A stretch of DNA of 16,824 nt from a virus, in UHGV virus genome UHGV-0124552, one strand, 5' to 3'. A program made the translations under genes and the position numbers. Positions 171 to 16,824 of this stretch are shown in pieces. Position 1 is the stretch's first letter. Each line of letters starts with the position of its first letter. The notes under the pieces were generated by a model. It was not told the origin of the DNA and searched no databases. It worked only from the letters and a program-made list of their open reading frames with translations.

Positions 171-175
171 TTGTT

Positions 176-445
176 TTACCTTAGACGCCATGGGCCCCTA
201 TCTTCAATCTGTTCGACTAACCCCTCCTCTTCTAGTTCACGCAATAGTGCAACAACCCAATATTGTTGGTTCGAACTTGTGGCTTTCCGTTTTTCTCCCC
301 AATCGAGGCCGCTTAGACGAAATACCTCAGCTTGCTTAACGCCGTTGCCGTTTTTTTGGGCATCTGGGTGAGTTTTAAGTACGGATAAAGCCAATTCTTT
401 GGCTCTGTTGCGCAATTCCGCTCCCTGATGCTGAAACTTATTCAT
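176..445 (-). CDS. Hypothetical 89-aa protein between attL and int; possible small DNA-binding protein
   Basis: ATG at 445 preceded on the - strand by GGAG with an 8-nt spacer. Open frame of 89 codons. No family recognised with confidence. Confidence 0.5.
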   Translation of the reverse strand: MNKFQHQGAELRNRAKELALSVLKTHPDAQKNGNGVKQAEVFRLSGLDWGEKRKATSSNQQYWVVALLRELEEEGLVEQIEDRGPWRLR

Positions 446-503
446 TGATAGTGCTCCATGTGAAAAAAAAGAATATTAGCTCAACAGGGCAAAATACGCA
501 TTT

Positions 504-1535
504 TCAAAAACTTGCTATTGATGTTGGTAGTGTTGCCAGCGGATTAAACCGTAATGCAGTTTCCAGGTGATCCGGTGCTAGATGTGCGTAACGCATAGTC
601 ATTTTTATGTCGTGATGTCCGAGGATTTTTTGCAAAGCAAGGATATTTCCACCCGACATCATAAAATGCGCCGCAAACGTATGGCGCAGAACGTGTGTCA
701 GTTGACCGCGAGGGAGCACGATAGACGTTTTTTCCATCACGGATAAAAATTGAAAATAGCAGTCTGTGAAGAAATTGAACCCATCGAGCGCCATGATCTC
801 TTCGTAAAGCTCTTTACTGATAGGGATGCTTCTGTTTTTCTTCCCCTTCGTTCTGACAAAGGTAATTCGGTATTTGGTCACCTGTGAGCGGGTAAGGTTT
901 ATTGCTTCTCGCCAGCGTGCGCCTGTGCTTAAGCATATCTTGACTACCAGTGCCAGAATTGGGTCCTGACGTTTGCAATCATCCAGCAGTTCAACAATCT
1001 GCTCATGGGTAAGCCATGCCATCTCTTTTTCTGCGATGGTGAATTTTCGCATGTTCTCCAGTGGGTTTGGATACGACCATTCGCCCAGGCGGGATAGTTC
1101 GCTAAAAACACTACTTAGATAGCTTTGCTCCAGGTTAATGGTGACCGGGCTGGCCCCTTTCTTCCATTTCTCGCTGAAGTAGATCTCACCTGTCAGTCGT
1201 TTATCTCGATAATGGGCAAACATTTTAGATGTGAGATCGGTTGCAAGGGGATTGCCCAGAGCGTCAACCATCAGCAGCAATTTGTCATAGACATGCTGCC
1301 CAGCAGTCAGAGATTTACCATGTAGTTTGAACCATAGCTCAACCACGTCTTTCAGGGTTCGACGATCTACTGATTCGCCCAGCCAGGGCTTTGCTTCGGT
1401 TTCTTCCATCGTGTGACGCTCAAAAGCCAGTGCTTCGCCTTTGGTGGCGAATTGTTTACGCACACGACGCCCACTACGTCCGGCGGGGTAACATTCGCAA
1501 AGCCATTTTCCTGTGGTGAGTTTTCGTACTGCCAT
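504..1535 (-). CDS. int: Tyrosine recombinase / phage integrase, P2/186 Int family
   Basis: N-terminus MAVRKL..GKWLCECYPAGRSGRRVRKQF closely resembles P2/186 Int (recalled from memory). C-terminal catalytic region LRHTFAAHF ... MRYAHL. ATG at 1535 has a GGAGGG RBS 8 nt upstream; the longer track ORF starting at 1613 is probably an over-extension. Confidence 0.9.
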   Translation of the reverse strand: MAVRKLTTGKWLCECYPAGRSGRRVRKQFATKGEALAFERHTMEETEAKPWLGESVDRRTLKDVVELWFKLHGKSLTAGQHVYDKLLLMVDALGNPLATDLTSKMFAHYRDKRLTGEIYFSEKWKKGASPVTINLEQSYLSSVFSELSRLGEWSYPNPLENMRKFTIAEKEMAWLTHEQIVELLDDCKRQDPILALVVKICLSTGARWREAINLTRSQVTKYRITFVRTKGKKNRSIPISKELYEEIMALDGFNFFTDCYFQFLSVMEKTSIVLPRGQLTHVLRHTFAAHFMMSGGNILALQKILGHHDIKMTMRYAHLAPDHLETALRFNPLATLPTSIASF

Positions 1536-4201: not shown

Positions 4202-4428
4202 TGGCTGATGCAATGGATCTCGTACAGCAGCGCGTTGAAGAAGAACGCCAGCGCCATATTCGTGCTGCCCGTGCCAAAACACCGGGCGTGTCTCGCGTGC
4301 TTTGTATTGAATGTGAAGCGCCAATTCCGCCAGCACGACGCCGCGCCATTCCGGGAGTGCAGCTTTGCATTACCTGCCAGGAAATCGCAGAGCTGAAAGG
4401 CAAACATTACAACGGAGGTGCTGTATGA
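4201..4428 (+). CDS. TraR/DksA-family C4 zinc-finger protein
   Basis: CIECEAPIP ... CITCQ gives a Cys-x2-Cys ... Cys-x2-Cys arrangement. AGGAG RBS 8 nt upstream. Typical small gene of P2-like early operons. Confidence 0.7.
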   Translation: MADAMDLVQQRVEEERQRHIRAARAKTPGVSRVLCIECEAPIPPARRRAIPGVQLCITCQEIAELKGKHYNGGAV

Positions 4429-5282
4429 GCACCATCCTGAAATGGGCGGGAAATAAAACCGCCATTATGTCCGAACTGAAAAAACACCTTCCTGCTGGCC
4501 CGCGACTGGTTGAACCTTTCGCGGGTTCCTGTGCTGTGATGATGGAGACGGATTACCCCAGCTATCTGGTTGCGGATATTAATCCTGATTTAATCAACCT
4601 CTATAAAAAGGTTGCCGCTGATTGTGAATCGTTTATATCTCGCGCCAGAGTTTTATTTGAGATCGCAAACAGGGAGGTGGTTTATTACAACATAAGGCAG
4701 GAGTTTAATTACTCCACTGAAATTACTGATTTCATGAAAGCGGTATATTTCCTGTATCTCAATCGTCACGGTTACCGTGGTTTATGTCGCTATAACAAGA
4801 GCGGGCATTTCAACATTCCCTACGGTAATTATAAAAATCCGTATTTCCCTGAAAAAGAAATTCGCGCATTTGCAGAAAAGGCCCAGCGAGCAACGTTTAT
4901 CTGCGCCAGCTTTGATGAAACGCTGGCGATGTTGAAGGCGGGGGATGTGGTGTATTGCGATCCGCCGTATGACGGTACGTTTTCCGGCTATCACACTGAC
5001 GGCTTCACTGAAGATGACCAGTATCACCTGGCATCTGTTCTTGAACATCGGTCATCAGAAGGACATCCGGTCATTGTTTCTAACAGTGACACATCCCTGA
5101 TCCGTTCGCTGTATCGCAATTTTACTCACCACTACATCAAGGCAAAACGCAGCATCGGTGTGGCAGCTGGCGAGGGTAAATCAGCAACAGAAATCATTGC
5201 TGTTTCCGGGCCGCGCTGCTGGGTGGGATTTGATTATTCGCGTGGCGTGGATAGTTCTGCCGTGTACGGAGTACGTGCATGA
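4425..5282 (+). CDS. dam: DNA N6-adenine methyltransferase (Dam-like)
   Basis: N-terminal LKWAGNK and catalytic CDPPYDG (DPPY motif). GGAGG RBS 7 nt before ATG 4425. Stop overlaps the gpA start (ATGA). Confidence 0.85.
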
Positions 5283-8663: not shown

Positions 8664-9782
8664 ATGTATCTTTTCAAGTATTACCGTCCGGACTTCTTCT
8701 TCGAGAAAGCTATTCGTTATAATGAATTATATTTTTCCGCTCCTGCGCAATTGAATGATCCCAATGATCTCAATATAGATTATCGCTTCGATAATAAATT
8801 GAAATTATGGGATATTTTATTGCGTTCTCCTTGCGATAAATCCTATAAAAATTTGAGTCACATATTGGATTTGAGTAATTTGAAAATACATAAGGGATTG
8901 AATCGTATTTTTAGAGGAAAAAAAATAAAAAGTAGCATTGAGTCATTAGATAGCCTGTTCGACTCACACGTTGATGAGATACGTAAGATCATAGATGATG
9001 GTTTACTACCTATCAATGTGATTAATTCTGCTATTTATGGAAATATTCCTGAACCACGCCAATATTTGGTTTCACTTTGCGAGAACAGTATCAAAGAAAG
9101 GTTGTATAGGAAAATAGTTCCTGCAGTATTCAGTGTGTCATTTTCAGCTAATGCGTTAGATCGTATGATGTGGGCGCATTATGCTGCTGGCTTTAGTGGT
9201 TGTGTTGTGATTTATGAAACGCAGGATTTTAATATTGATGGTATACCCTATACTGGAATGAAGCTAAGAGAAAATTTATTTTCATCAGATAAATTTAATT
9301 TTCCAGTTAAGCCAATAAAATATAGTAATCAGGCTAAAGAGGTTTCACTTCTAGACCCAAGCGCAAATGTTGCAGAGTTATTTTTAACTAAAAATAGATT
9401 TTGGAGATATGAAGCTGAATATCGAATGTTTATTCCGGAGGCAAATGCAGGAATAGGGAGTGAGCGGCATGTTCAAAGACGCGTAAATCGAAATATTGGA
9501 CATATTTTTCATCATGATGCTAATGTTGTTAAAGGGATCATTTTTGGTCCTAGAATGTGTGAAATGAAAAAAGAAAGCATATGGAATTGTATCAAGTCAA
9601 ATATGGAGAATTCAAATTCAACAATATGTTATTTTTTTGACTCTGAGTTATCAGCATCAGGAAAGATTACTATTTCAAAAGGGCAACGAGCGGAAAAAAT
9701 GAAAAATTTCACTTTGTTCAGGAACAAGTTAAGTCAGACGGAAATGGCTAAAGTTTTGAAGGAAATTGGCATTACGAACTAA
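8664..9782 (+). CDS. DUF2971-like protein (372 aa) of unknown function; candidate single-gene defence/abortive-infection protein
   Basis: N-terminal YRPDFFFEKAIRYNELYFSAPAQLNDPND, central VFSVSFSANALDRMMWAHYAAGFSGCVVIY and C-terminal KNRFWRYEAEYRMF match the motif pattern I associate with DUF2971. Very AT-rich, preceded by about 380 bp of AT-rich non-coding DNA and followed by a terminator. Confidence 0.6.
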   Translation: MYLFKYYRPDFFFEKAIRYNELYFSAPAQLNDPNDLNIDYRFDNKLKLWDILLRSPCDKSYKNLSHILDLSNLKIHKGLNRIFRGKKIKSSIESLDSLFDSHVDEIRKIIDDGLLPINVINSAIYGNIPEPRQYLVSLCENSIKERLYRKIVPAVFSVSFSANALDRMMWAHYAAGFSGCVVIYETQDFNIDGIPYTGMKLRENLFSSDKFNFPVKPIKYSNQAKEVSLLDPSANVAELFLTKNRFWRYEAEYRMFIPEANAGIGSERHVQRRVNRNIGHIFHHDANVVKGIIFGPRMCEMKKESIWNCIKSNMENSNSTICYFFDSELSASGKITISKGQRAEKMKNFTLFRNKLSQTEMAKVLKEIGITN

Positions 9783-9917: not shown

Positions 9918-9936
9918 GGCGTGGCGGGGATACGAG
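9918..9936 (+). other. cos: cos-like sequence (possible cohesive-end site or remnant of a P2/186-type phage)
   Basis: GGCGTGGCGGGGATACGAG matches the remembered 186 cos GGCGTGGCGGGGAAAGCAT in the first 13 nt (15 of 19 overall). It lies in a short GC-rich island between two AT-rich insertions, in the same orientation relative to Q as P2 cos. Confidence 0.4.
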
Positions 9937-10007
9937 CGCGCGCAGCGGGTGGAAACTCAGATTTGAATGTTGTATAAAAGATGGGATCATTCTGAGGAAA
10001 AGTGGAT

Positions 10008-10913
10008 ATGAAAAAGAAAACTATTCCGGAGTTGCAGAAGCAAAATCTGGCAAATTTAATTAAAAGTCGGCTTTTTCAACAGAAAAATAAAAATAAAGTT
10101 ACTGTTTTCCTTTGCGGGGGCGATTTGAATGATCCGTTTTTTTGTAGAAATAAAGTTAAAAGAGTGTTGGAAACACATCCCAAAATAGAAATATTCTATC
10201 CTGAGGAGTTGTTTGATGAGCTTTTGTATGGACAAGGTCAGCATAGTCTTTTAAGTTTGGAGAATATTTTAGCTGATTCAGTCGATGTTATTATTATTAT
10301 TCCTGAAAGCCCAGGGTCTTTCGCTGAATTGGGCGCATTTTCAAATAATGAAAAACTGTGCAAAAAAATGATATGTCTTCAGGATGACAAATTCAAACTT
10401 AAAAAAAGCTTTCTTAATTATGGGCCTATAAAACTGCTTCGGCGTGCTAATAGCGGTGCAGTATTGCGAGGAGATTTGTCGACTCTTGAAAGCTTGAGTA
10501 CAGGTAAAGCTTTTTATAATAGAATTATAAAAAGTATTAATGACATCAAAAAAAATAACCCAGTTAATCACTCAATAGATAATATTCTTCACGCTCGGCG
10601 TTTTATACTGCCATGTATATATTTGATGGATGGTATAGATAATATACTTCTATATGAGCTATTACATTTGGTGACTAAGAAAGATGCTATTCTTTGTGAA
10701 ATTATCGTTAAGTCTGTTATTTCAAGCTTGATTAAAGAGTCAATAATTAGGCGTTCAGTTCAAGGATACCATATTACAGAAATTGGTATGCAATACGTTC
10801 TTGAGCATTTTGATCGAAAGGCTTTGGACAATCTACGACTGGATATGATGAACTTCGAAAATCGTGGTAAAACAATACTCCACTATGATAGGATGCGTTT
10901 TGCGCACCCTTAG
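10008..10913 (+). CDS. Retron effector: nucleoside 2-deoxyribosyltransferase-like (NDT-like) protein, as in the Ec86 (Retron-Eco1) family
   Basis: VFLCGG ... VIIIIPESPGSFAELGAFS resembles the NDT-like fold motif with a catalytic Glu. Its stop codon lies inside the retron a1 repeat, immediately upstream of msr-msd and the RT. GAGGA RBS 9 nt before ATG 10008; the track start at 10002 is GTG. Confidence 0.65.
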   Translation: MKKKTIPELQKQNLANLIKSRLFQQKNKNKVTVFLCGGDLNDPFFCRNKVKRVLETHPKIEIFYPEELFDELLYGQGQHSLLSLENILADSVDVIIIIPESPGSFAELGAFSNNEKLCKKMICLQDDKFKLKKSFLNYGPIKLLRRANSGAVLRGDLSTLESLSTGKAFYNRIIKSINDIKKNNPVNHSIDNILHARRFILPCIYLMDGIDNILLYELLHLVTKKDAILCEIIVKSVISSLIKESIIRRSVQGYHITEIGMQYVLEHFDRKALDNLRLDMMNFENRGKTILHYDRMRFAHP

Positions 10914-11061
10914 CGAGTGGCTTCTCCGGAAGTTCACTGGACAGTGTTTCGCTGTCCTACATACAATCTGAAGTTTTACCAGTTCCCTCATTGAAAGGAG
11001 AACATCTCCCGATGTTCTCCTTTCACTTCGGAATCTGATTTTTATGACGTAAGGGTGCGCT
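10901..11061 (+). ncRNA. msr-msd: Retron msr-msd non-coding RNA (template/primer for msDNA), Ec86-like
   Basis: Inverted repeats a1 TGCGCACCCTTA (10901-10912) and a2 TAAGGGTGCGC (11050-11060). The 5' 17 nt TGCGCACCCTTAGCGAG and the 3' TGACGTAAGGGTGCGC are identical to the Ec86 ncRNA as I remember it. msr hairpin GGACAG-tgtttcg-CTGTCC (10939-10957). Long msd hairpin GAAAGGAGAACATC-tccc-GATGTTCTCCTTTC (10993-11024). Confidence 0.75.
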
Positions 11062-11062
11062 C

Positions 11063-12037
11063 ATGACTTCCGCAACACCATCTCAGGTTTTTCGCTTACG
11101 CAATCTTGGATTGCCTGTTATGTCCTCTTTAGAGGATATGTCTAGAGAAATGCGTTTATCAGTAGACATACTCCGGTTGTACATTTATCGTGCTGACAAA
11201 TACTATAAGGTTTATTCGTTGCCAAAAAGAGATGGCAAGAGATCCCGCATCATTTCACAGCCATCACGTGAGCTGAAGGCATTGCAAGCTTGGGTGTTAA
11301 GAAACATCCTTGATAAGTTACATTCATCCCCATTTTCCAAAGGCTTTGAAAAAGGGCAATCAATATTAAATAATGCCAGCCCACATGTAGGAGCTAACTA
11401 TGTATTAAATATTGATTTAGAAGATTGTTTTAATACTATTCTGATAGAGAAAATCTATACTGTTTTTCATTCTCTGGGGTATAACTCTACTATTTCTAAT
11501 GCTTTAGCAAGATTGTGTTCATTTAATGGTTCGCTACCTCAAGGTGCACCATCTTCTCCAAAGATTGCGAATCTTGTTTTAACTAAATTAGATTATAGAA
11601 TACATGGATATGCAGGTAGTAAGGGGATCGTATTTACTCGATATGCCGATGATTTGACTTTATCTGCTCAATCTTTAAAAAAAATACTTAAAGCTAAGTC
11701 ATTTGTATGCTCTATAATACCAAGTGAATCTTTGAAGGTTAATTATAATAAAGTTGCGATTCATGGCCCCAAAGCAAGGAAGGAGGTTACTGGGCTCGTT
11801 TTATCTATTGATAATGTTGGAGTTGGCAGAATACGTTATCGCGAAATTAGAAGTAAGATCCATTATCTGGCGGTAAAAAGAAATTCTGATTTCGAACATG
11901 TTAAAGGACTTATTGCGTTTGTTAAAAGTGTAGACAAGAAAAACTATAGAAAATTGATGACTTTCTCAAATAAAATGTCTGAAGCATATGGGGTTGATCT
12001 AAGTGTTCTTTTTCCTAAAAACAAAAAGGCCATTTAA
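11063..12037 (+). CDS. ret: Retron reverse transcriptase (Ec86 / Retron-Eco1-like)
   Basis: N-terminus FRLRNLGLPVM and QPSRELKALQAWVLRNILDKL closely resemble Ec86 RT (from memory). Also QGAPSSPKIANL, the catalytic YADD (RYADDLTLSA) and the retron-specific VTG motif (KEVTGLVL). Start codon abuts the a2 repeat. Confidence 0.85.
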   Translation: MTSATPSQVFRLRNLGLPVMSSLEDMSREMRLSVDILRLYIYRADKYYKVYSLPKRDGKRSRIISQPSRELKALQAWVLRNILDKLHSSPFSKGFEKGQSILNNASPHVGANYVLNIDLEDCFNTILIEKIYTVFHSLGYNSTISNALARLCSFNGSLPQGAPSSPKIANLVLTKLDYRIHGYAGSKGIVFTRYADDLTLSAQSLKKILKAKSFVCSIIPSESLKVNYNKVAIHGPKARKEVTGLVLSIDNVGVGRIRYREIRSKIHYLAVKRNSDFEHVKGLIAFVKSVDKKNYRKLMTFSNKMSEAYGVDLSVLFPKNKKAI

Positions 12038-12050
12038 TGGCCTTTTTGTT
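12023..12050. terminator. Bidirectional rho-independent terminator shared by the convergent ret and Q genes
   Basis: AAAAAGGCCAT-tta-ATGGCCTTTTT palindrome with A/T runs on both sides. The ret stop codon lies in the loop and the Q stop immediately beyond. Confidence 0.55.
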
Positions 12051-12052
12051 TA

Positions 12053-13081
12053 TTAGGTAATTGAATAACTCACGAAATTAATAACTTCTTCATTTATCCA
12101 TTCGTTCAGCTCTTCTAGTCTTTTTTGTAAAGGGATGAGTTCATTCCTCACAAAAACATTAGCAGCTTTCTCTACATCCCCAAACCCCCCAATATTATTC
12201 GGCATGATCCCCATCATCTGCGGCGGCACGCGGTGCGCAGCCATCATGTCATCCCGGCTCACGTTCTTGATATTCAGAAACTCATCCTTCGCCGCGACTT
12301 CTGACAATGGGATGATCTGAAGTCCGTCCTTTTTGCCGTTAGGCGAGTACATAAACAGATTGCGGAAGTTACCTGGTCCTTTGGCGCTTTTCATCGTATT
12401 GCGGAGGTTGTTCACATCCTCCTGGTTCTGCGCAGCATCGGTCATGTACATGATGAAGCCTGCATGACTGCCGTTAATGTAATACTTGCGGCGGAACAGC
12501 GTGGCGGACTCGTTGAGCAGAGCTGACGGAATGGCAGAAAGATAACCGGGCAGGCCGTAGATCTCCTGGTTAATGTCCGGTTCCATCAGATGAAAAATGC
12601 TGCCTTTCGTGAACTGATACGGCTGGGTTGTCATACCGTATTGCACAAACCAGTAGGTATCCAGGTCTAACCCGCGTCGGGTGTATTTTGCCAGTGCAGG
12701 CTCAAGGGCGATAACTTCACCGAAGCGGTTCGTGCGTTTCTCCAGGTAGGCGTTACCAAAAACCAGATAGTCCTGCACAAAACGCGAAAAAGCCTGCTGG
12801 CTGAGTAGCGGGTGAGGGATGTAGGTGCTGGTCAGAATGTTGCATTTCACCGCAATTGGTGAACTGTGATGCACGGCAGCGCGGAAGGTGCGCGCCAGTC
12901 CGTCAAAGCTGACAGGAGGCTCATACCAGCGATCTGTCTGTACGCATTCCACATAGTCCAGCAGTTCGCGGCGGTCAAGTACAGGAACGGGATCACCGAA
13001 GCTGAATGCTTCGGCTGAAGTCTGGCTTTTATGCTTGAGCTGATTCGTCGCCGCAGCGCGGTTTTTCTTAATCTTTCCCAT
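12053..13081 (-). CDS. Q: Portal protein (P2 gpQ-like)
   Basis: About 342 aa, size and sequence style of P2 gpQ. Convergent with ret and divergent from O, as in P2. ATG at 13081 overlaps the P stop (ATGA). The last ~25 codons (12053-12130) are AT-rich, unlike the rest of the gene. Confidence 0.8.
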   Translation of the reverse strand: MGKIKKNRAAATNQLKHKSQTSAEAFSFGDPVPVLDRRELLDYVECVQTDRWYEPPVSFDGLARTFRAAVHHSSPIAVKCNILTSTYIPHPLLSQQAFSRFVQDYLVFGNAYLEKRTNRFGEVIALEPALAKYTRRGLDLDTYWFVQYGMTTQPYQFTKGSIFHLMEPDINQEIYGLPGYLSAIPSALLNESATLFRRKYYINGSHAGFIMYMTDAAQNQEDVNNLRNTMKSAKGPGNFRNLFMYSPNGKKDGLQIIPLSEVAAKDEFLNIKNVSRDDMMAAHRVPPQMMGIMPNNIGGFGDVEKAANVFVRNELIPLQKRLEELNEWINEEVINFVSYSIT

Positions 13082-14989: not shown

Positions 14990-15883
14990 ATGACAGTGAA
15001 AGCAAAGCGTTTTCGCATCGGGGTGGAAGGTGCCACCACCGACGGACGCGAAATCCAGCGTGAATGGCTGGAACAGATGGCAGCCAGCTACAACCCGGCG
15101 GTGTATACCGCGCTGATTAACCTTGAGCACATCAAGTCTTATCTGCCGGACAGCACCTTTAACCGCTACGGCAAGGTGACGGCGCTGTTTGCTGAAGAAA
15201 TCACGGAAGGTCCGCTGGCAGGCAAGATGGCGCTGTATGCCGACGTTGAGCCAACAGAGTCCCTGGTGGAGCTGGTGAAAAAAGGCCAGAAATTATTCAC
15301 CTCTATGGAAGTCAGCCCAAAGTTTGCTGATACGGGCAAAGCCTACCTGGTCGGGCTGGCTGCCACTGATGACCCTGCCAGTCTGGGCACTGAAATGCTG
15401 ACATTCAGCGCCAGTGCAGCCCATAACCCGCTGGCAAACCGCAAGCAGAATCCCGCCAATCTCTTTACCGCCGCAGAGGAAACGGTGATCGAACTGGAAG
15501 AAATCCAGGAGGACAAGCCGTCCCTGTTTGCCCGCGTCACGGCGCTGTTCACCAAAAAAGAGCAGTCCGACGATGCCCGGTTCTCTGATGTGCATAAGGC
15601 CGTGGAGCTGGTCGCCACTGAGCAGCAGAACCTGAGCGCACGGACCGAAAAATCCCTGTCTGAGCAGGAAGAACGTCTGTCTGAGCTGGAGACTGCCCTG
15701 CAGGCACAGCAGACCGCCTTTAACGAACTGGTGAATAAGCTGAGTCATGAAGACAGCCGCCAGGACTACGCGAAGCTGACCATCAATGGTGAGGTGCTCT
15801 ATGAAGTGGACCTTATCAACATGGTGGAAATTGTGGACGGTGTGGACCTGATGGAAGCGCACCGCAACGCCCTCGGCCTCTGA
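14990..15883 (+). CDS. O: Capsid scaffolding protein (P2 gpO-like)
   Basis: FRIGVEGATTDGREI ... INLEH ... TSMEVSPKFADTGKAYLVGLAATDDPASLGTE ... ASDDARFSDVH aligns by eye along the length of remembered P2 gpO. GGAG RBS 8 nt upstream. Confidence 0.85.
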   Translation: MTVKAKRFRIGVEGATTDGREIQREWLEQMAASYNPAVYTALINLEHIKSYLPDSTFNRYGKVTALFAEEITEGPLAGKMALYADVEPTESLVELVKKGQKLFTSMEVSPKFADTGKAYLVGLAATDDPASLGTEMLTFSASAAHNPLANRKQNPANLFTAAEETVIELEEIQEDKPSLFARVTALFTKKEQSDDARFSDVHKAVELVATEQQNLSARTEKSLSEQEERLSELETALQAQQTAFNELVNKLSHEDSRQDYAKLTINGEVLYEVDLINMVEIVDGVDLMEAHRNALGL

Positions 15884-15894
15884 TATATCTGAAC

Positions 15895-15912
15895 GGCGCG
15901 GGATACCGCGCC
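15895..15912 (+). other. GC-rich hairpin in the short O to E' spacer (possible terminator or deletion-junction landmark)
   Basis: GGCGCGG-gata-CCGCGCC. No T-run follows, so not a canonical intrinsic terminator. Confidence 0.3.
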
Positions 15913-15937
15913 AGAACCCAATTGACAGGACAGCAAA

Positions 15938-16080
15938 ATGAGCGATAAGCAGACTGAAAAGACCATTCAACTGGATACCCCCATCAAGCGCGGTAAAACA
16001 GAAATCACCGAAATTGTGCTGCGTAAACCGCAGTCCGGTGCGCTGCGCGGTACACGCCTGCAGGCCATTATGGATACCTG
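15938..16080 (+). pseudogene. Truncated tail assembly chaperone gpE-like N-terminal fragment (E')
   Basis: First ~47 aa (TIQLDTPIKRGKTEITEIVLRKPQSGALRGTRLQAIMD) fit the gpE-type tail assembly chaperone pattern. Beyond about 16080 the frame reads into unrelated residues before stopping at 16246. Confidence 0.5.
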
Positions 16081-16383
16081 GTGGGTACGGATGAAAACGT
16101 GCTGGTACTTAATCGCACTTATGCCAACCGGAGCAACGCTGAACGGGCAGCGAAAATGCAGTGGGAACGCCTGCAACGCGGCGTTGCGTCATTCTCGCTA
16201 CAACTGGCGGAAGGGCGGGCAGATCTCTACACAGAAATGCCTGTGAAGGTCAGTGGCTTTAAACAGCCGATAGATGATGCGGAATGGACCATTACGACTC
16301 TGACGCATACCGTCAGCCCGGATAACGGTTTTACGACCAGTCTGGAGCTTGAAGTGAGGATTGATGATTTCGAAATGGAATGA
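16081..16383 (+). pseudogene. C-terminal fragment of tail protein gpD (D')
   Basis: ERAAKMQWERLQRG ... RADLYTEMPVKVSGFK ... GFTTSLELEV resembles the C-terminus of P2 gpD (from memory). It lacks the ~290 N-terminal residues and is out of frame with the upstream E' fragment. Confidence 0.55.
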
Positions 16384-16473
16384 TTCTTCGCAATGGAGAA
16401 CTTTTAAGTTTGCAAAATGGAATAATGCGGTATCATTATTGTGAATTTAGCAAAAATGGGGAGAGCTCGAAAA

Positions 16474-16692
16474 ATGATGATTTGCCCACTGTGTGGAAGT
16501 GCCGCCCATACTCGCAGCAGTTTTCAGGTATCTTCATTGACCAAAGAGCGTTACAACCAGTGCCAGAACATTAACTGCAGCCATACTTTTGTTACCCATG
16601 AAACTTTTGTTCGTTCGATTGCAACGCCAAAAGAGTCAAATCCGGTTCAGCCGCATCCAATGAAATCAGGACAGGTGGCGCTCTCTCTTTGA
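16474..16692 (+). CDS. ogr: Ogr-family zinc-finger late gene transcriptional activator
   Basis: 72 aa; CPLCGSAAHTRSS ... KERYNQCQNINCSHTF ... RPHP closely matches remembered P2 Ogr (CPLCQHAAHARTS ... KERYHQCQNVNCSATF ... RPHP). ATG at 16474; the track start at 16441 is GTG. Confidence 0.9.
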   Translation: MMICPLCGSAAHTRSSFQVSSLTKERYNQCQNINCSHTFVTHETFVRSIATPKESNPVQPHPMKSGQVALSL

Positions 16693-16715
16693 CGCTGCCG
16701 CCATTTTGTCGCCAT
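16693..16715. repeat. attR: attR core: right copy of the 23-bp imperfect direct repeat CGCTGCCGCCATTTTGTCGCCAT
   Basis: 21 of 23 identical to 148-170. Begins immediately after the ogr stop codon. Confidence 0.6.
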
Positions 16716-16778
16716 CGTTAAAGAATAGTGCTTCTAACATCATGATTTTAAACAGCTTAAATTTCAGACAACAAAAAA

Positions 16779-16821
16779 CCCATCAACCTTGAACCGAAAT
16801 GGCGGGGTTGATGGGCTCCAC
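16779..16821 (-). terminator. Rho-independent terminator-like hairpin in the right flank
   Basis: cccatcaacc (16779-16788) pairs with ggttgatggg (16806-16815) across a 17-nt loop. On the - strand the stem is followed by TTTTTTGTTG. The loop is long, so confidence is moderate. Confidence 0.35.
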
Positions 16822-16824
16822 AAA

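What the first reader, a model, noticed from the sequence alone, without database searches (positions are those of the whole stretch)
10008..12037. Complete Ec86-family retron inserted between cos and the portal gene
Gene order is NDT-like effector, msr-msd, reverse transcriptase. The RT shows extended similarity to Ec86 RT and has the YADD and VTG motifs. This is a three-component retron anti-phage system of the Retron-Eco1 type, sitting convergent to Q with a shared bidirectional terminator. Retrons are known cargo of P2-like prophages, so this is a recognisable system, but a previously unnoted variant is possible.
Basis: partly seen in the sequence, partly recalled or inferred. Interest (0 to 1): 0.65.

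Follow-up and report, generated by a model that had tools for sequence, protein, structure and literature searches.

The report
Ec86-like retron in P2-like prophage
This is an intact anti-phage retron (toxin-like effector, template RNA, reverse transcriptase) closely related to the well-studied E. coli Ec86/Eco1 retron and at the same spot of the same kind of prophage; it is ordinary, except that its DNA "sensor" hairpin lacks the methylation site that triggers Ec86.

Summary
Window 10008-12037 (+) encodes a 301-aa NDT-like effector, a 161-nt msr-msd RNA and a 324-aa retron reverse transcriptase. The cassette lies between the P2/186-type cos site (9918-9936) and the convergent portal gene, and a palindromic hairpin separates the two gene ends.

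The proteins align full-length to the solved Ec86 (Retron-Eco1) proteins, at 59% identity for the RT and 51% for the effector. They hit the same PADLOC sub-models as Ec86. The RNA fold is supported by covariation across 16 family members.

Ec86 in E. coli BL21 has the same gene order at the same site of a related prophage at the rcdA/rybB locus. RefSeq already annotates both genes as "retron St85 family". This allele is rare: 4 of 5,426 complete E. coli genomes.

What differs is the sensor. The predicted msDNA is about 81-82 nt. Its stem-loop sequence is different and carries neither the CCWGG (Dcm) motif that triggers Ec86 nor the GATC (Dam) motif that triggers Retron-Sen2. Some effector residues that contact the hairpin in Ec86 have changed, while catalytic and dimer residues are intact.

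Verdict: a new member of a known kind, of low to moderate interest, probably with a different trigger.

The parts
9918..9936 (.). cos cohesive-end site of the P2/186-like prophage (GGCGTGGCGGGGATACGAG); left landmark of the cargo slot
   Evidence: Aligns to P2 cosL 1-19 and to 186 cos 1-19 as annotated in NC_001895 and NC_001317.
9950..9978 (+). Putative sigma-70 promoter of the retron operon (TGGAAA, 17 nt, TATAAA). A GAGGA Shine-Dalgarno follows at 9994-9998.
   Evidence: Read directly from the sequence. The TGTATAAA element is shared with the Ec86 upstream region in BL21. The consensus scan did not report it, so this is inference only.
10008..10913 (+). Effector: 301-aa NDT-like N-glycosidase plus DNA-binding C-lobe (STM3845/RcaT/Ec86-effector family)
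   Evidence: PADLOC NDT_II-A PDLC02930 at 2.5e-97. NCBIfam STM3845_fam at 186 bits. Full-length alignment to the Ec86 effector 7v9x_C at 5e-92. 51% identity, with the catalytic E107 (Ec86 E106) and the ligand and dimer residues conserved.
10901..11061 (+). msr-msd non-coding RNA. a1 is 10902-10912 and the branching G is 10913 (the G of the effector's TAG stop). Two msr stem-loops lie at about 10916-10958. a2 is 11050-11060.
   Evidence: Alignment with the Ec86 ncRNA. MFE -73.7 kcal/mol, z = -8.8. Covariation over 16 family ncRNAs: 45 pairs, 94.4% of cells paired, 25 pairs with compensatory changes, and 0 of 500 shuffles reaching the observed value.
10967..11048 (+). msd template. The predicted msDNA is about 81-82 nt (the reverse complement) with a 13-bp perfect stem, AAAGGAGAACATC/GATGTTCTCCTTT. 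It has no CCWGG and no GATC.
   Evidence: Boundaries are set by homology to the 86-nt Ec86 msd. The Ec86 msdDNA is 85 nt in the solved structures (PMC12673091). DNA fold -19.1 kcal/mol, z = -7.0. Motif search.
11063..12037 (+). Retron reverse transcriptase, 324 aa, type II-A clade
   Evidence: PADLOC RT_II-A PDLC02941 at 4.9e-123. NCBIfam retron_St85_RT at 272 bits. Ec86 RT 7v9u_A at 5.4e-124 over residues 3-311. 59% identity to Ec86 RT. NAxxH, YADD and VTG are present.
12015..12056 (.). Palindromic hairpin flanked by T-runs on both strands, between the RT stop (12035-12037, in the loop) and the portal stop (12053-12055). A putative bidirectional terminator.
   Evidence: -20.5 kcal/mol on each strand, z about -6.7. 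P2 and 186 have an annotated terminator at the equivalent place downstream of the portal gene. Its function is inferred.
12053..13081 (-). Portal gene (gpQ homologue), convergent with the RT gene; right landmark of the cargo slot
   Evidence: RefSeq annotation of the identical locus. 94% identical to the BL21 prophage portal protein, with the divergence concentrated in the last ~40 residues.

Best explanation
This is an intact type II-A retron of the Ec86/Retron-Eco1 kind, carried as cargo in the cos-proximal defence hotspot of a P2/186-like prophage at the rcdA/rybB locus.

Inferred mechanism, by homology with Eco1 and Sen2: one transcript carries effector, msr-msd and RT. The RT primes on the 2'-OH of G10913 and copies the msd into an msDNA of about 81-82 nt. 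The RT-msDNA complex binds the NDT-like N-glycosidase effector and holds it inactive, in filaments in the case of Eco1. When an infecting phage modifies or degrades the msDNA hairpin, the effector is released. It then hydrolyses NAD(P)+ and depletes adenine nucleotides, which aborts the infection.

Because the hairpin lacks both CCWGG and GATC, the methyltransferase triggers known for Eco1 (phage Dcm) and Sen2 (Dam) probably do not act here. The trigger is most likely a different phage factor, such as a nuclease or another DNA-modifying enzyme.

Shown here: the three components, their family, the RNA structure, conservation of the catalytic residues, and the genomic position. Inferred: msDNA production, defence activity, filament assembly and the trigger.
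For: - The family models and the solved Ec86 proteins match full-length with very strong scores.
- Ec86 and the window hit the same PADLOC sub-models (PDLC02930, PDLC02941).
- Catalytic, ligand and dimer residues are identical: Ec86 E65, D69, E84, S100, E106, N112, N113, F128, K131, S133 and N136. E65 to N113, S133 and N136 are invariant in all ten family effectors compared; F128 and K131 each change in one. The functional roles of these residues come from Wang et al., bioRxiv 10.1101/2023.08.16.553469.
- The ncRNA has the a1/a2 repeats, the branching G, two msr stem-loops and an msd hairpin, with compensatory changes in every helix.
- Architecture and site are identical to Ec86 in BL21 and in an intact prophage, and to P2-like phages of other Enterobacterales.
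- The region between gpA and gpQ is a documented defence hotspot that includes retrons (PMC9122126).
- GC content is 32-37% in the cargo against 50-60% in the phage genes.
- The retron is 99-100% identical in four genomes that carry apparently complete prophages, so it is maintained.
- CCWGG is required for Dcm triggering of Ec86 and GATC for Dam triggering of Sen2. The window's msd has neither.
Against: - There are no experimental data for this allele: no msDNA, no defence phenotype.
- The prophage in this window is a deletion remnant, so expression context could differ.
- The promoter is only a weak consensus match, and the scan did not report it.
- Absence of CCWGG and GATC does not prove a different trigger. 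Other triggers of Eco1-type retrons, such as nucleases, may be shared.
- Loss of CCWGG also occurs in close Ec86 relatives (L011, L015), so the motif is not a family constant.
- The residue mapping in effector region 151-200 is uncertain, because phmmer and the global alignment differ by one register.
Confidence: 0.9

Rival explanations
1. It is functionally the same as Ec86 in every respect, including the trigger. The sequence differences would then be neutral drift of an allele, with sensing independent of the CCWGG site.
For: The scaffold, the prophage site and the catalytic residues are the same. The loop-proximal part of the msd stem is similar: GGAGA[A/G]CATC...GATG[T/C]TCTCC.
Against: Mutating CCTGG in the Ec86 hairpin abolished defence against phage K42, and the window has no CCWGG. 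The outer hairpin is different and 4 nt shorter. Ec86 contact residues K149 and R219 are G and I here.
Confidence: 0.2
2. It is a decaying, non-functional retron relic inside a defective prophage.
For: In this window the prophage has lost everything from gpO to gpD. In strain LR-48 the same allele has been destroyed, with an IS1 element in its place next to the portal gene.
Against: Both ORFs are full-length, with all catalytic motifs. The ncRNA pairing is intact. The sequence is 100% identical to copies in intact prophages.
Confidence: 0.05
3. It is a Retron-Sen2 (St85)-type system, as the RefSeq product names suggest, rather than an Eco1-type system.
For: The NCBIfam models that match are named after St85/STM3845.
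Against: Those models cover the whole II-A family and also name the Ec86 genes in BL21. The window is 59% and 51% identical to Ec86 over full length, and its best PADLOC sub-models are those of Ec86. The msd lacks the GATC that Sen2 uses. I did not compare it directly with the Sen2 sequences.
Confidence: 0.03

Closest known systems
Retron-Eco1 (Ec86) of E. coli B/BL21, type II-A3
   Same: - Order: effector, msr-msd, RT.
- The effector stop codon overlaps a1 and the branching G, and the C-terminal tail ...AHP is shared.
- The a1/a2 sequence is the same (GCGCACCCTTA).
- The cassette sits between cos and the convergent portal gene of a P2/186-like prophage at rcdA/rybB.
- The same PADLOC sub-models match.
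- Catalytic and dimer-interface residues are the same.
   Different: - RT identity is 59% and effector identity 51%.
- The msd is about 4 nt shorter, with a different outer stem and no CCWGG Dcm site.
- msr stem-loop 1 is shorter.
- Ec86 hairpin-contact residues K149 and R219 are not conserved, and the alpha-9 lysines shift.
- The upstream cargo gene differs: DUF2971 here, against a small hypothetical gene in BL21.
Retron-Sen2 (St85) and Retron-Eco9: RcaT / msDNA / RrtT tripartite toxin-antitoxin
   Same: Same effector family (STM3845/RcaT) and same RT family by NCBIfam. The logic is the same: RT-msDNA acts as antitoxin, and phage enzymes that methylate or degrade the msDNA act as triggers.
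   Different: Sen2 is triggered through a GATC in its msDNA duplex, and there is none here. Gene order and sequence were not compared directly. From memory, Sen2 has the effector between msd and the RT; I did not verify this.
Cargo of the P2 gpA-gpQ (cos-proximal) defence hotspot
   Same: The location is the one described as a hotspot that holds retrons and other defence genes (PMC9122126; PMC13586616).
   Different: Here the retron lies on the portal side of cos and a second candidate defence gene (DUF2971/PDC-S31) lies on the gpA side, so the slot holds two cargo modules.

Membership tests
Retron (general) | Reverse transcriptase with the retron-type motifs NAxxH, YADD and VTG | tested here: met
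   N104-A-S-P-H108, Y194-A-D-D197 and V242-T-G244 are aligned with Ec86 RT. Pfam RVT_1 at 1e-24.
Retron (general) | Adjacent ncRNA with a1/a2 inverted repeats, a conserved branching G after a1, and an msd hairpin | tested here: met
   a1 10902-10912, a2 11050-11060, G10913. The structure is supported by 25 covarying pairs in 16 sequences. No Rfam family covers it.
Retron (general) | Production of branched RNA-linked msDNA | not testable with these tools
   This needs msDNA extraction and gel analysis or sequencing. The predicted product is about 81-82 nt.
Type II-A retron (Eco1/Sen2 class) | Effector of the NDT-like plus DNA-binding (STM3845/RcaT) family | tested here: met
   PADLOC NDT_II-A at 2.5e-97. 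NCBIfam STM3845_fam at 186 bits against a cut-off of 100. Full-length match to the Ec86 effector.
Type II-A retron (Eco1/Sen2 class) | RT belongs to the II-A clade | tested here: met
   The best PADLOC model is RT_II-A PDLC02941 at 408 bits; the next clade scores 263 bits. It is the same best model as for Ec86 RT. No phylogenetic tree was built.
Retron-Eco1 (Ec86) type | Catalytic Glu (E106) and nucleotide-binding and dimer residues of the effector | tested here: met
   E65, D69, E84, S100, E106, N112, N113, F128, K131, S133 and N136 are all identical; R141 is K.
Retron-Eco1 (Ec86) type | Gene order effector, msr-msd, RT, between cos and the portal gene of a P2-like prophage | tested here: met
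   Same layout and same site as BL21 Ec86.
Retron-Eco1 (Ec86) type | CCWGG (Dcm) motif in the msDNA stem-loop, the site through which Ec86 is triggered | tested here: not met
   There is no CCWGG, and no GATC, anywhere in 10901-11062, while Ec86 has CCAGG at template position 134. The motif is also absent in some close Ec86 relatives, so it defines the trigger and not the family.
Retron-Eco1 (Ec86) type | Basic effector residues that contact the msDNA stem-loop (K29, K149, K177, K178, K185, R219) | tested here: inconclusive
   K29 is kept. K149 becomes G and R219 becomes I. The alpha-9 lysines map to N, R and D in the global alignment, but the register is uncertain and nearby R172, K175, K181 and K182 keep the helix basic.
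Retron-Eco1 (Ec86) type | Assembly of RT-msDNA-effector filaments and NAD(P)+ hydrolysis on activation | not testable with these tools
   Known for Eco1 (PMC12673091). The RT N-terminal segment FRLRNLGLPVM is conserved. Assembly itself needs biochemistry or cryo-EM.
Ec86 itself (same element) | Near-identical sequence to the BL21 retron | tested here: not met
   About 68% nucleotide identity over part of the locus. 59% and 51% protein identity.

The most novel reading that the evidence does not exclude
This is a natural re-targeted version of Retron-Eco1. The enzyme core and the prophage slot are the same, but the msDNA hairpin and the effector surface that reads it have co-diverged. The system would therefore ignore the Dcm and Dam methylation that triggers Eco1 and Sen2, and would respond to a different, still unknown phage factor. 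Paired with Ec86, it would give a ready-made swap experiment for how msDNA sequence sets trigger specificity.
Probability: 0.45. Interest if true: 0.45.

Novelty: new member of a known kind. Interest (0 to 1): 0.3.

Why it matters
On its own this is a routine identification. Type II-A retrons are well characterised, and RefSeq already labels these two genes.

Its value is comparative. It is a second, 50-60% diverged allele of the structurally solved Ec86 system, sitting in the same prophage slot. The catalytic core is conserved, but the msDNA hairpin is different and has neither of the two methylation motifs known to trigger this retron class. That makes it a convenient natural partner for hairpin and effector swap experiments on trigger specificity. 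Its ncRNA/RT pair could also be tried as an alternative for retron-based DNA production.

Tried and rejected
- Rfam, at gathering and at permissive thresholds, found no retron ncRNA family here; the only hits were chance matches and RybB at the window's end.
- The sigma-70/terminator scan reported neither the putative promoter at 9950-9978 nor the 12015-12056 hairpin. I assessed the hairpin by folding instead.
- The genome-contig scan returned only two distant loci, Bowmanella and Rheinheimera. The viral-contig scan and the protein look-ups were more useful.
- Protein P0002, the closest RT at 75% identity, had no contig on record.
- The Mol Cell 2024 and Cell Rep 2024 Eco1 papers are not in the held library. 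I used the bioRxiv version and a later paper's summary.
- Literature searches for the RefSeq accessions and for msd or RT sequence strings found nothing.
- I considered whether CCWGG or GATC motifs are enriched in family msd hairpins, which would point to methylation sensing as a family rule. They occur in several lineages, but roughly at chance expectation by my own estimate, so I make no claim.
- I considered that the St85 naming might mean a Sen2-type system, and rejected it (see the rival explanations).
- I did not run structure prediction, because full-length alignments to solved Ec86 chains at E values of 1e-92 to 1e-124 already settle the fold.

Full report

Yes. The window has two same-strand ORFs at exactly the stated coordinates. 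They are 10008-10913, 301 aa from the ATG, and 11063-12037, 324 aa.

The first ORF matches the PADLOC model NDT_II-A (PDLC02930, E=2.5e-97) and the NCBIfam equivalog STM3845_fam, "retron St85 family effector protein" (186 bits against a cut-off of 100). It also aligns end to end with the effector chain of the solved Ec86 complexes (7v9x_C, E=5e-92).

The second ORF matches RT_II-A (PDLC02941, E=4.9e-123), NCBIfam retron_St85_RT (272 bits against a cut-off of 235) and Pfam RVT_1. It aligns over residues 3-311 with Ec86 RT (7v9u_A, E=5.4e-124). The NAxxH (104-108), YADD (194-197) and VTG (242-244) motifs are all present.

**2. The non-coding RNA**

The 149-nt gap between the ORFs, together with the last 12 nt of the effector gene, aligns with the Ec86 msr-msd. 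The features are as follows.

- The inverted repeats are a1 GCGCACCCTTA (10902-10912) and a2 TAAGGGTGCGC (11050-11060).
- The conserved G after a1 is at 10913. By homology with Ec86 this is the branching G, and it is also the last base of the effector's TAG stop. The protein tail ...AHP is therefore encoded by a1, in both retrons.
- The RNA folds into the a1/a2 stem, two msr stem-loops and a long msd hairpin, at -73.7 kcal/mol with z = -8.8.

I collected 16 distinct ncRNAs of this family. They came from BL21, IMG/VR contigs, two marine gammaproteobacteria, Erwinia, Pantoea and metagenomes. On their alignment, 45 consensus pairs are 94.4% paired. Twenty-five pairs show compensatory changes, and these occur in all five helices. 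No shuffle out of 500 reached the observed values, and sliding the partners dropped pairing to about 40%.

By homology with the 86-nt Ec86 msd, the template is 10967-11048, which gives an 82-nt msDNA. The Ec86 msdDNA is 85 nt in the solved structures (PMC12673091), so the prediction is 81-82 nt. The predicted DNA forms a hairpin with a perfect 13-bp stem, at -19.1 kcal/mol with z = -7.0.

**3. Surroundings**

- Window 9918-9936 (GGCGTGGCGGGGATACGAG) aligns with the annotated 19-nt cohesive ends of P2 and 186.
- In those phages the portal gene ends about 190 nt from cos. Here it ends 2.1 kb away, and the retron fills the gap.
- The portal gene (12053-13081, minus strand) converges on the RT gene.
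- Between the two stop codons lies a palindrome, 12015-12056, that folds equally on both strands (-20.5 kcal/mol, z about -6.7). It has T-runs on both sides, and the RT stop codon sits in its loop. Its function as a terminator is inferred, and the simple scan missed it.
- The cargo is AT-rich, at 32-37% GC against 50-60% in the phage structural genes.
- The prophage sits at the rcdA/rybB locus.
- In this window the prophage is a remnant. Homology to intact prophages stops at 15769 inside the scaffold gene and resumes in the D/ogr end next to rybB.

**4. Relation to Ec86**

In BL21 the Ec86 retron has the same order (effector, msr-msd, RT) and is convergent on the portal gene of a related prophage at the same chromosomal site. 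An intact version of that prophage exists in strain VG1046-3E9.

The window's allele differs from Ec86 in the following ways.

- The RT is 59% identical and the effector 51% identical.
- DNA identity is about 68% over part of the locus.
- Both alleles hit the same PADLOC sub-models with similar scores.

The allele is uncommon. It occurs in 4 of 5,426 complete E. coli genomes: KFu015, 97.3, H1 and VG888-46E9. About 48 genomes carry Ec86, mostly laboratory B derivatives. Three IMG/VR contigs carry an identical RT, and its 90%-identity protein cluster has 71 member sequences. RefSeq annotates the genes as retron St85 family proteins WP_032301626.1 and WP_050488517.1.

More distant relatives, with RTs 56-68% identical, occupy the same cos-portal slot in other P2-like phages. 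One lies next to a Thoeris system. The gpA-gpQ interval is a published defence hotspot of P2-like phages that includes retrons (PMC9122126; PMC13586616).

**5. Mechanism**

For Eco1, the literature shows that RT-msDNA and the effector form filaments that keep the N-glycosidase inactive. A phage Dcm methyltransferase methylates a CCTGG in the msDNA stem-loop, and mutating that motif abolishes defence. Activation depletes adenine derivatives or hydrolyses NAD(P)+. For the related Sen2, Dam methylation of a GATC in the msDNA duplex, or RecE degradation of the msDNA, releases the toxin RcaT.

In the window's effector, every residue that Wang et al. reported as catalytic, ligand-binding or dimer-forming is identical: E65, D69, E84, S100, E106, N112, N113, F128, K131, S133 and N136 in Ec86 numbering. 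Across the ten family effectors I compared, all are invariant except F128 and K131, which each change in one member. I therefore infer the same biochemistry and the same toxin-antitoxin logic.

The sensing part differs in three respects.

- The msd has no CCWGG and no GATC.
- The outer part of the hairpin is unrelated in sequence and shorter.
- Two Ec86 residues that contact the hairpin are changed, K149 to G and R219 to I. The alpha-9 lysines do not align to lysines, but the alignment register there is uncertain and the helix stays basic.

Within the family, these contact positions stay basic only in the group that shares the Ec86-type hairpin. This fits co-divergence of hairpin and effector surface, but the sample is small.

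Loss of CCWGG also occurs in close Ec86 relatives (L011, L015). The motif therefore marks a trigger and not the family.

**6. Novelty and score**

The element is a new member of a known and structurally solved kind, already labelled generically in RefSeq, and a specialist would not be surprised by it.

The one point of interest is the missing methylation motifs and the altered hairpin-reading surface. Together they suggest a different trigger and make this allele a natural comparison partner for Ec86. I found no paper that mentions this allele, but the library is incomplete. Interest is 0.3.

Noticed in passing
window 8664-9782 (+): A 372-aa AT-rich ORF lies just left of cos, in the slot where P2 carries old/tin. 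It gives a sub-threshold Pfam match to DUF2971 (21.7 bits against a cut-off of 22) and matches the PADLOC candidate defence family PDC-S31 (E=1e-23). RefSeq annotates it as a DUF2971 protein. It is a second, uncharacterised candidate defence gene next to the retron.
   Followed up: partly
window 15769-16824: The prophage is a deletion remnant. Similarity to intact prophages ends at 15769 inside the gpO scaffold gene. The rest matches the gpD/ogr end of P2-like prophages, followed by the host sRNA gene rybB (16770-16824, minus strand, cut by the window end). All capsid, lysis and tail genes are missing.
   Followed up: partly
window 174-523: About 350 nt, with an 89-aa hypothetical ORF (176-445, minus strand, no Pfam hit), lie between the attL-side flank and the integrase gene. 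The stretch is absent from the retron-carrying prophages KFu015 and H1 but present in 209 of 5,426 E. coli genomes. This is a minor variable spot beside the integrase.
   Followed up: partly
L035 (E. coli LR-48) 4248-5234: In strain LR-48 an IS1 element sits next to the portal gene, and only the last 211 nt of this same RT allele remain, at 100% identity. The retron has been destroyed there.
   Followed up: partly
window 10967-11048 and L002 6805-6890: The msd of this retron and of the Ec86-type retrons contains no 4-bp palindrome at all. About 5 are expected, and P is about 0.005 for each by mononucleotide shuffles. More distant family members have normal numbers. This may reflect avoidance of restriction or methylation sites in the msDNA duplex, or it may be chance given several lineages tested.
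   Followed up: partly
window 4365-5282 (+): The prophage encodes its own D12-class N6-adenine DNA methyltransferase (Pfam MethyltransfD12, E=1e-76). The retron's msDNA has no GATC, and neither does that of Ec86, whose prophage carries the same gene. This would avoid self-triggering if that enzyme is Dam-like. Its specificity is not known.
   Followed up: no
window 10902-10913: The a1 arm of the ncRNA is also the last four codons of the effector gene (A-H-P-stop), and the putative branching G is the last base of the stop codon. The tail AHP is conserved in Ec86, so the protein end and the RNA stem constrain each other.
   Followed up: yes
L041 1937-5682: A relative of this retron, with an RT 64% identical, is not in a prophage slot. 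It lies directly upstream of a Thoeris pair (ThsA Macro, ThsB TIR) in a chromosomal defence island.
   Followed up: no
window 12053-12175 (portal gene 3' end): The last ~40 codons of the portal gene are much more diverged from the BL21 prophage than the rest of the gene, which is 94% identical overall. DNA similarity to BL21 begins only at 12140. The exchanged cargo module therefore seems to include the end of gpQ.
   Followed up: partly
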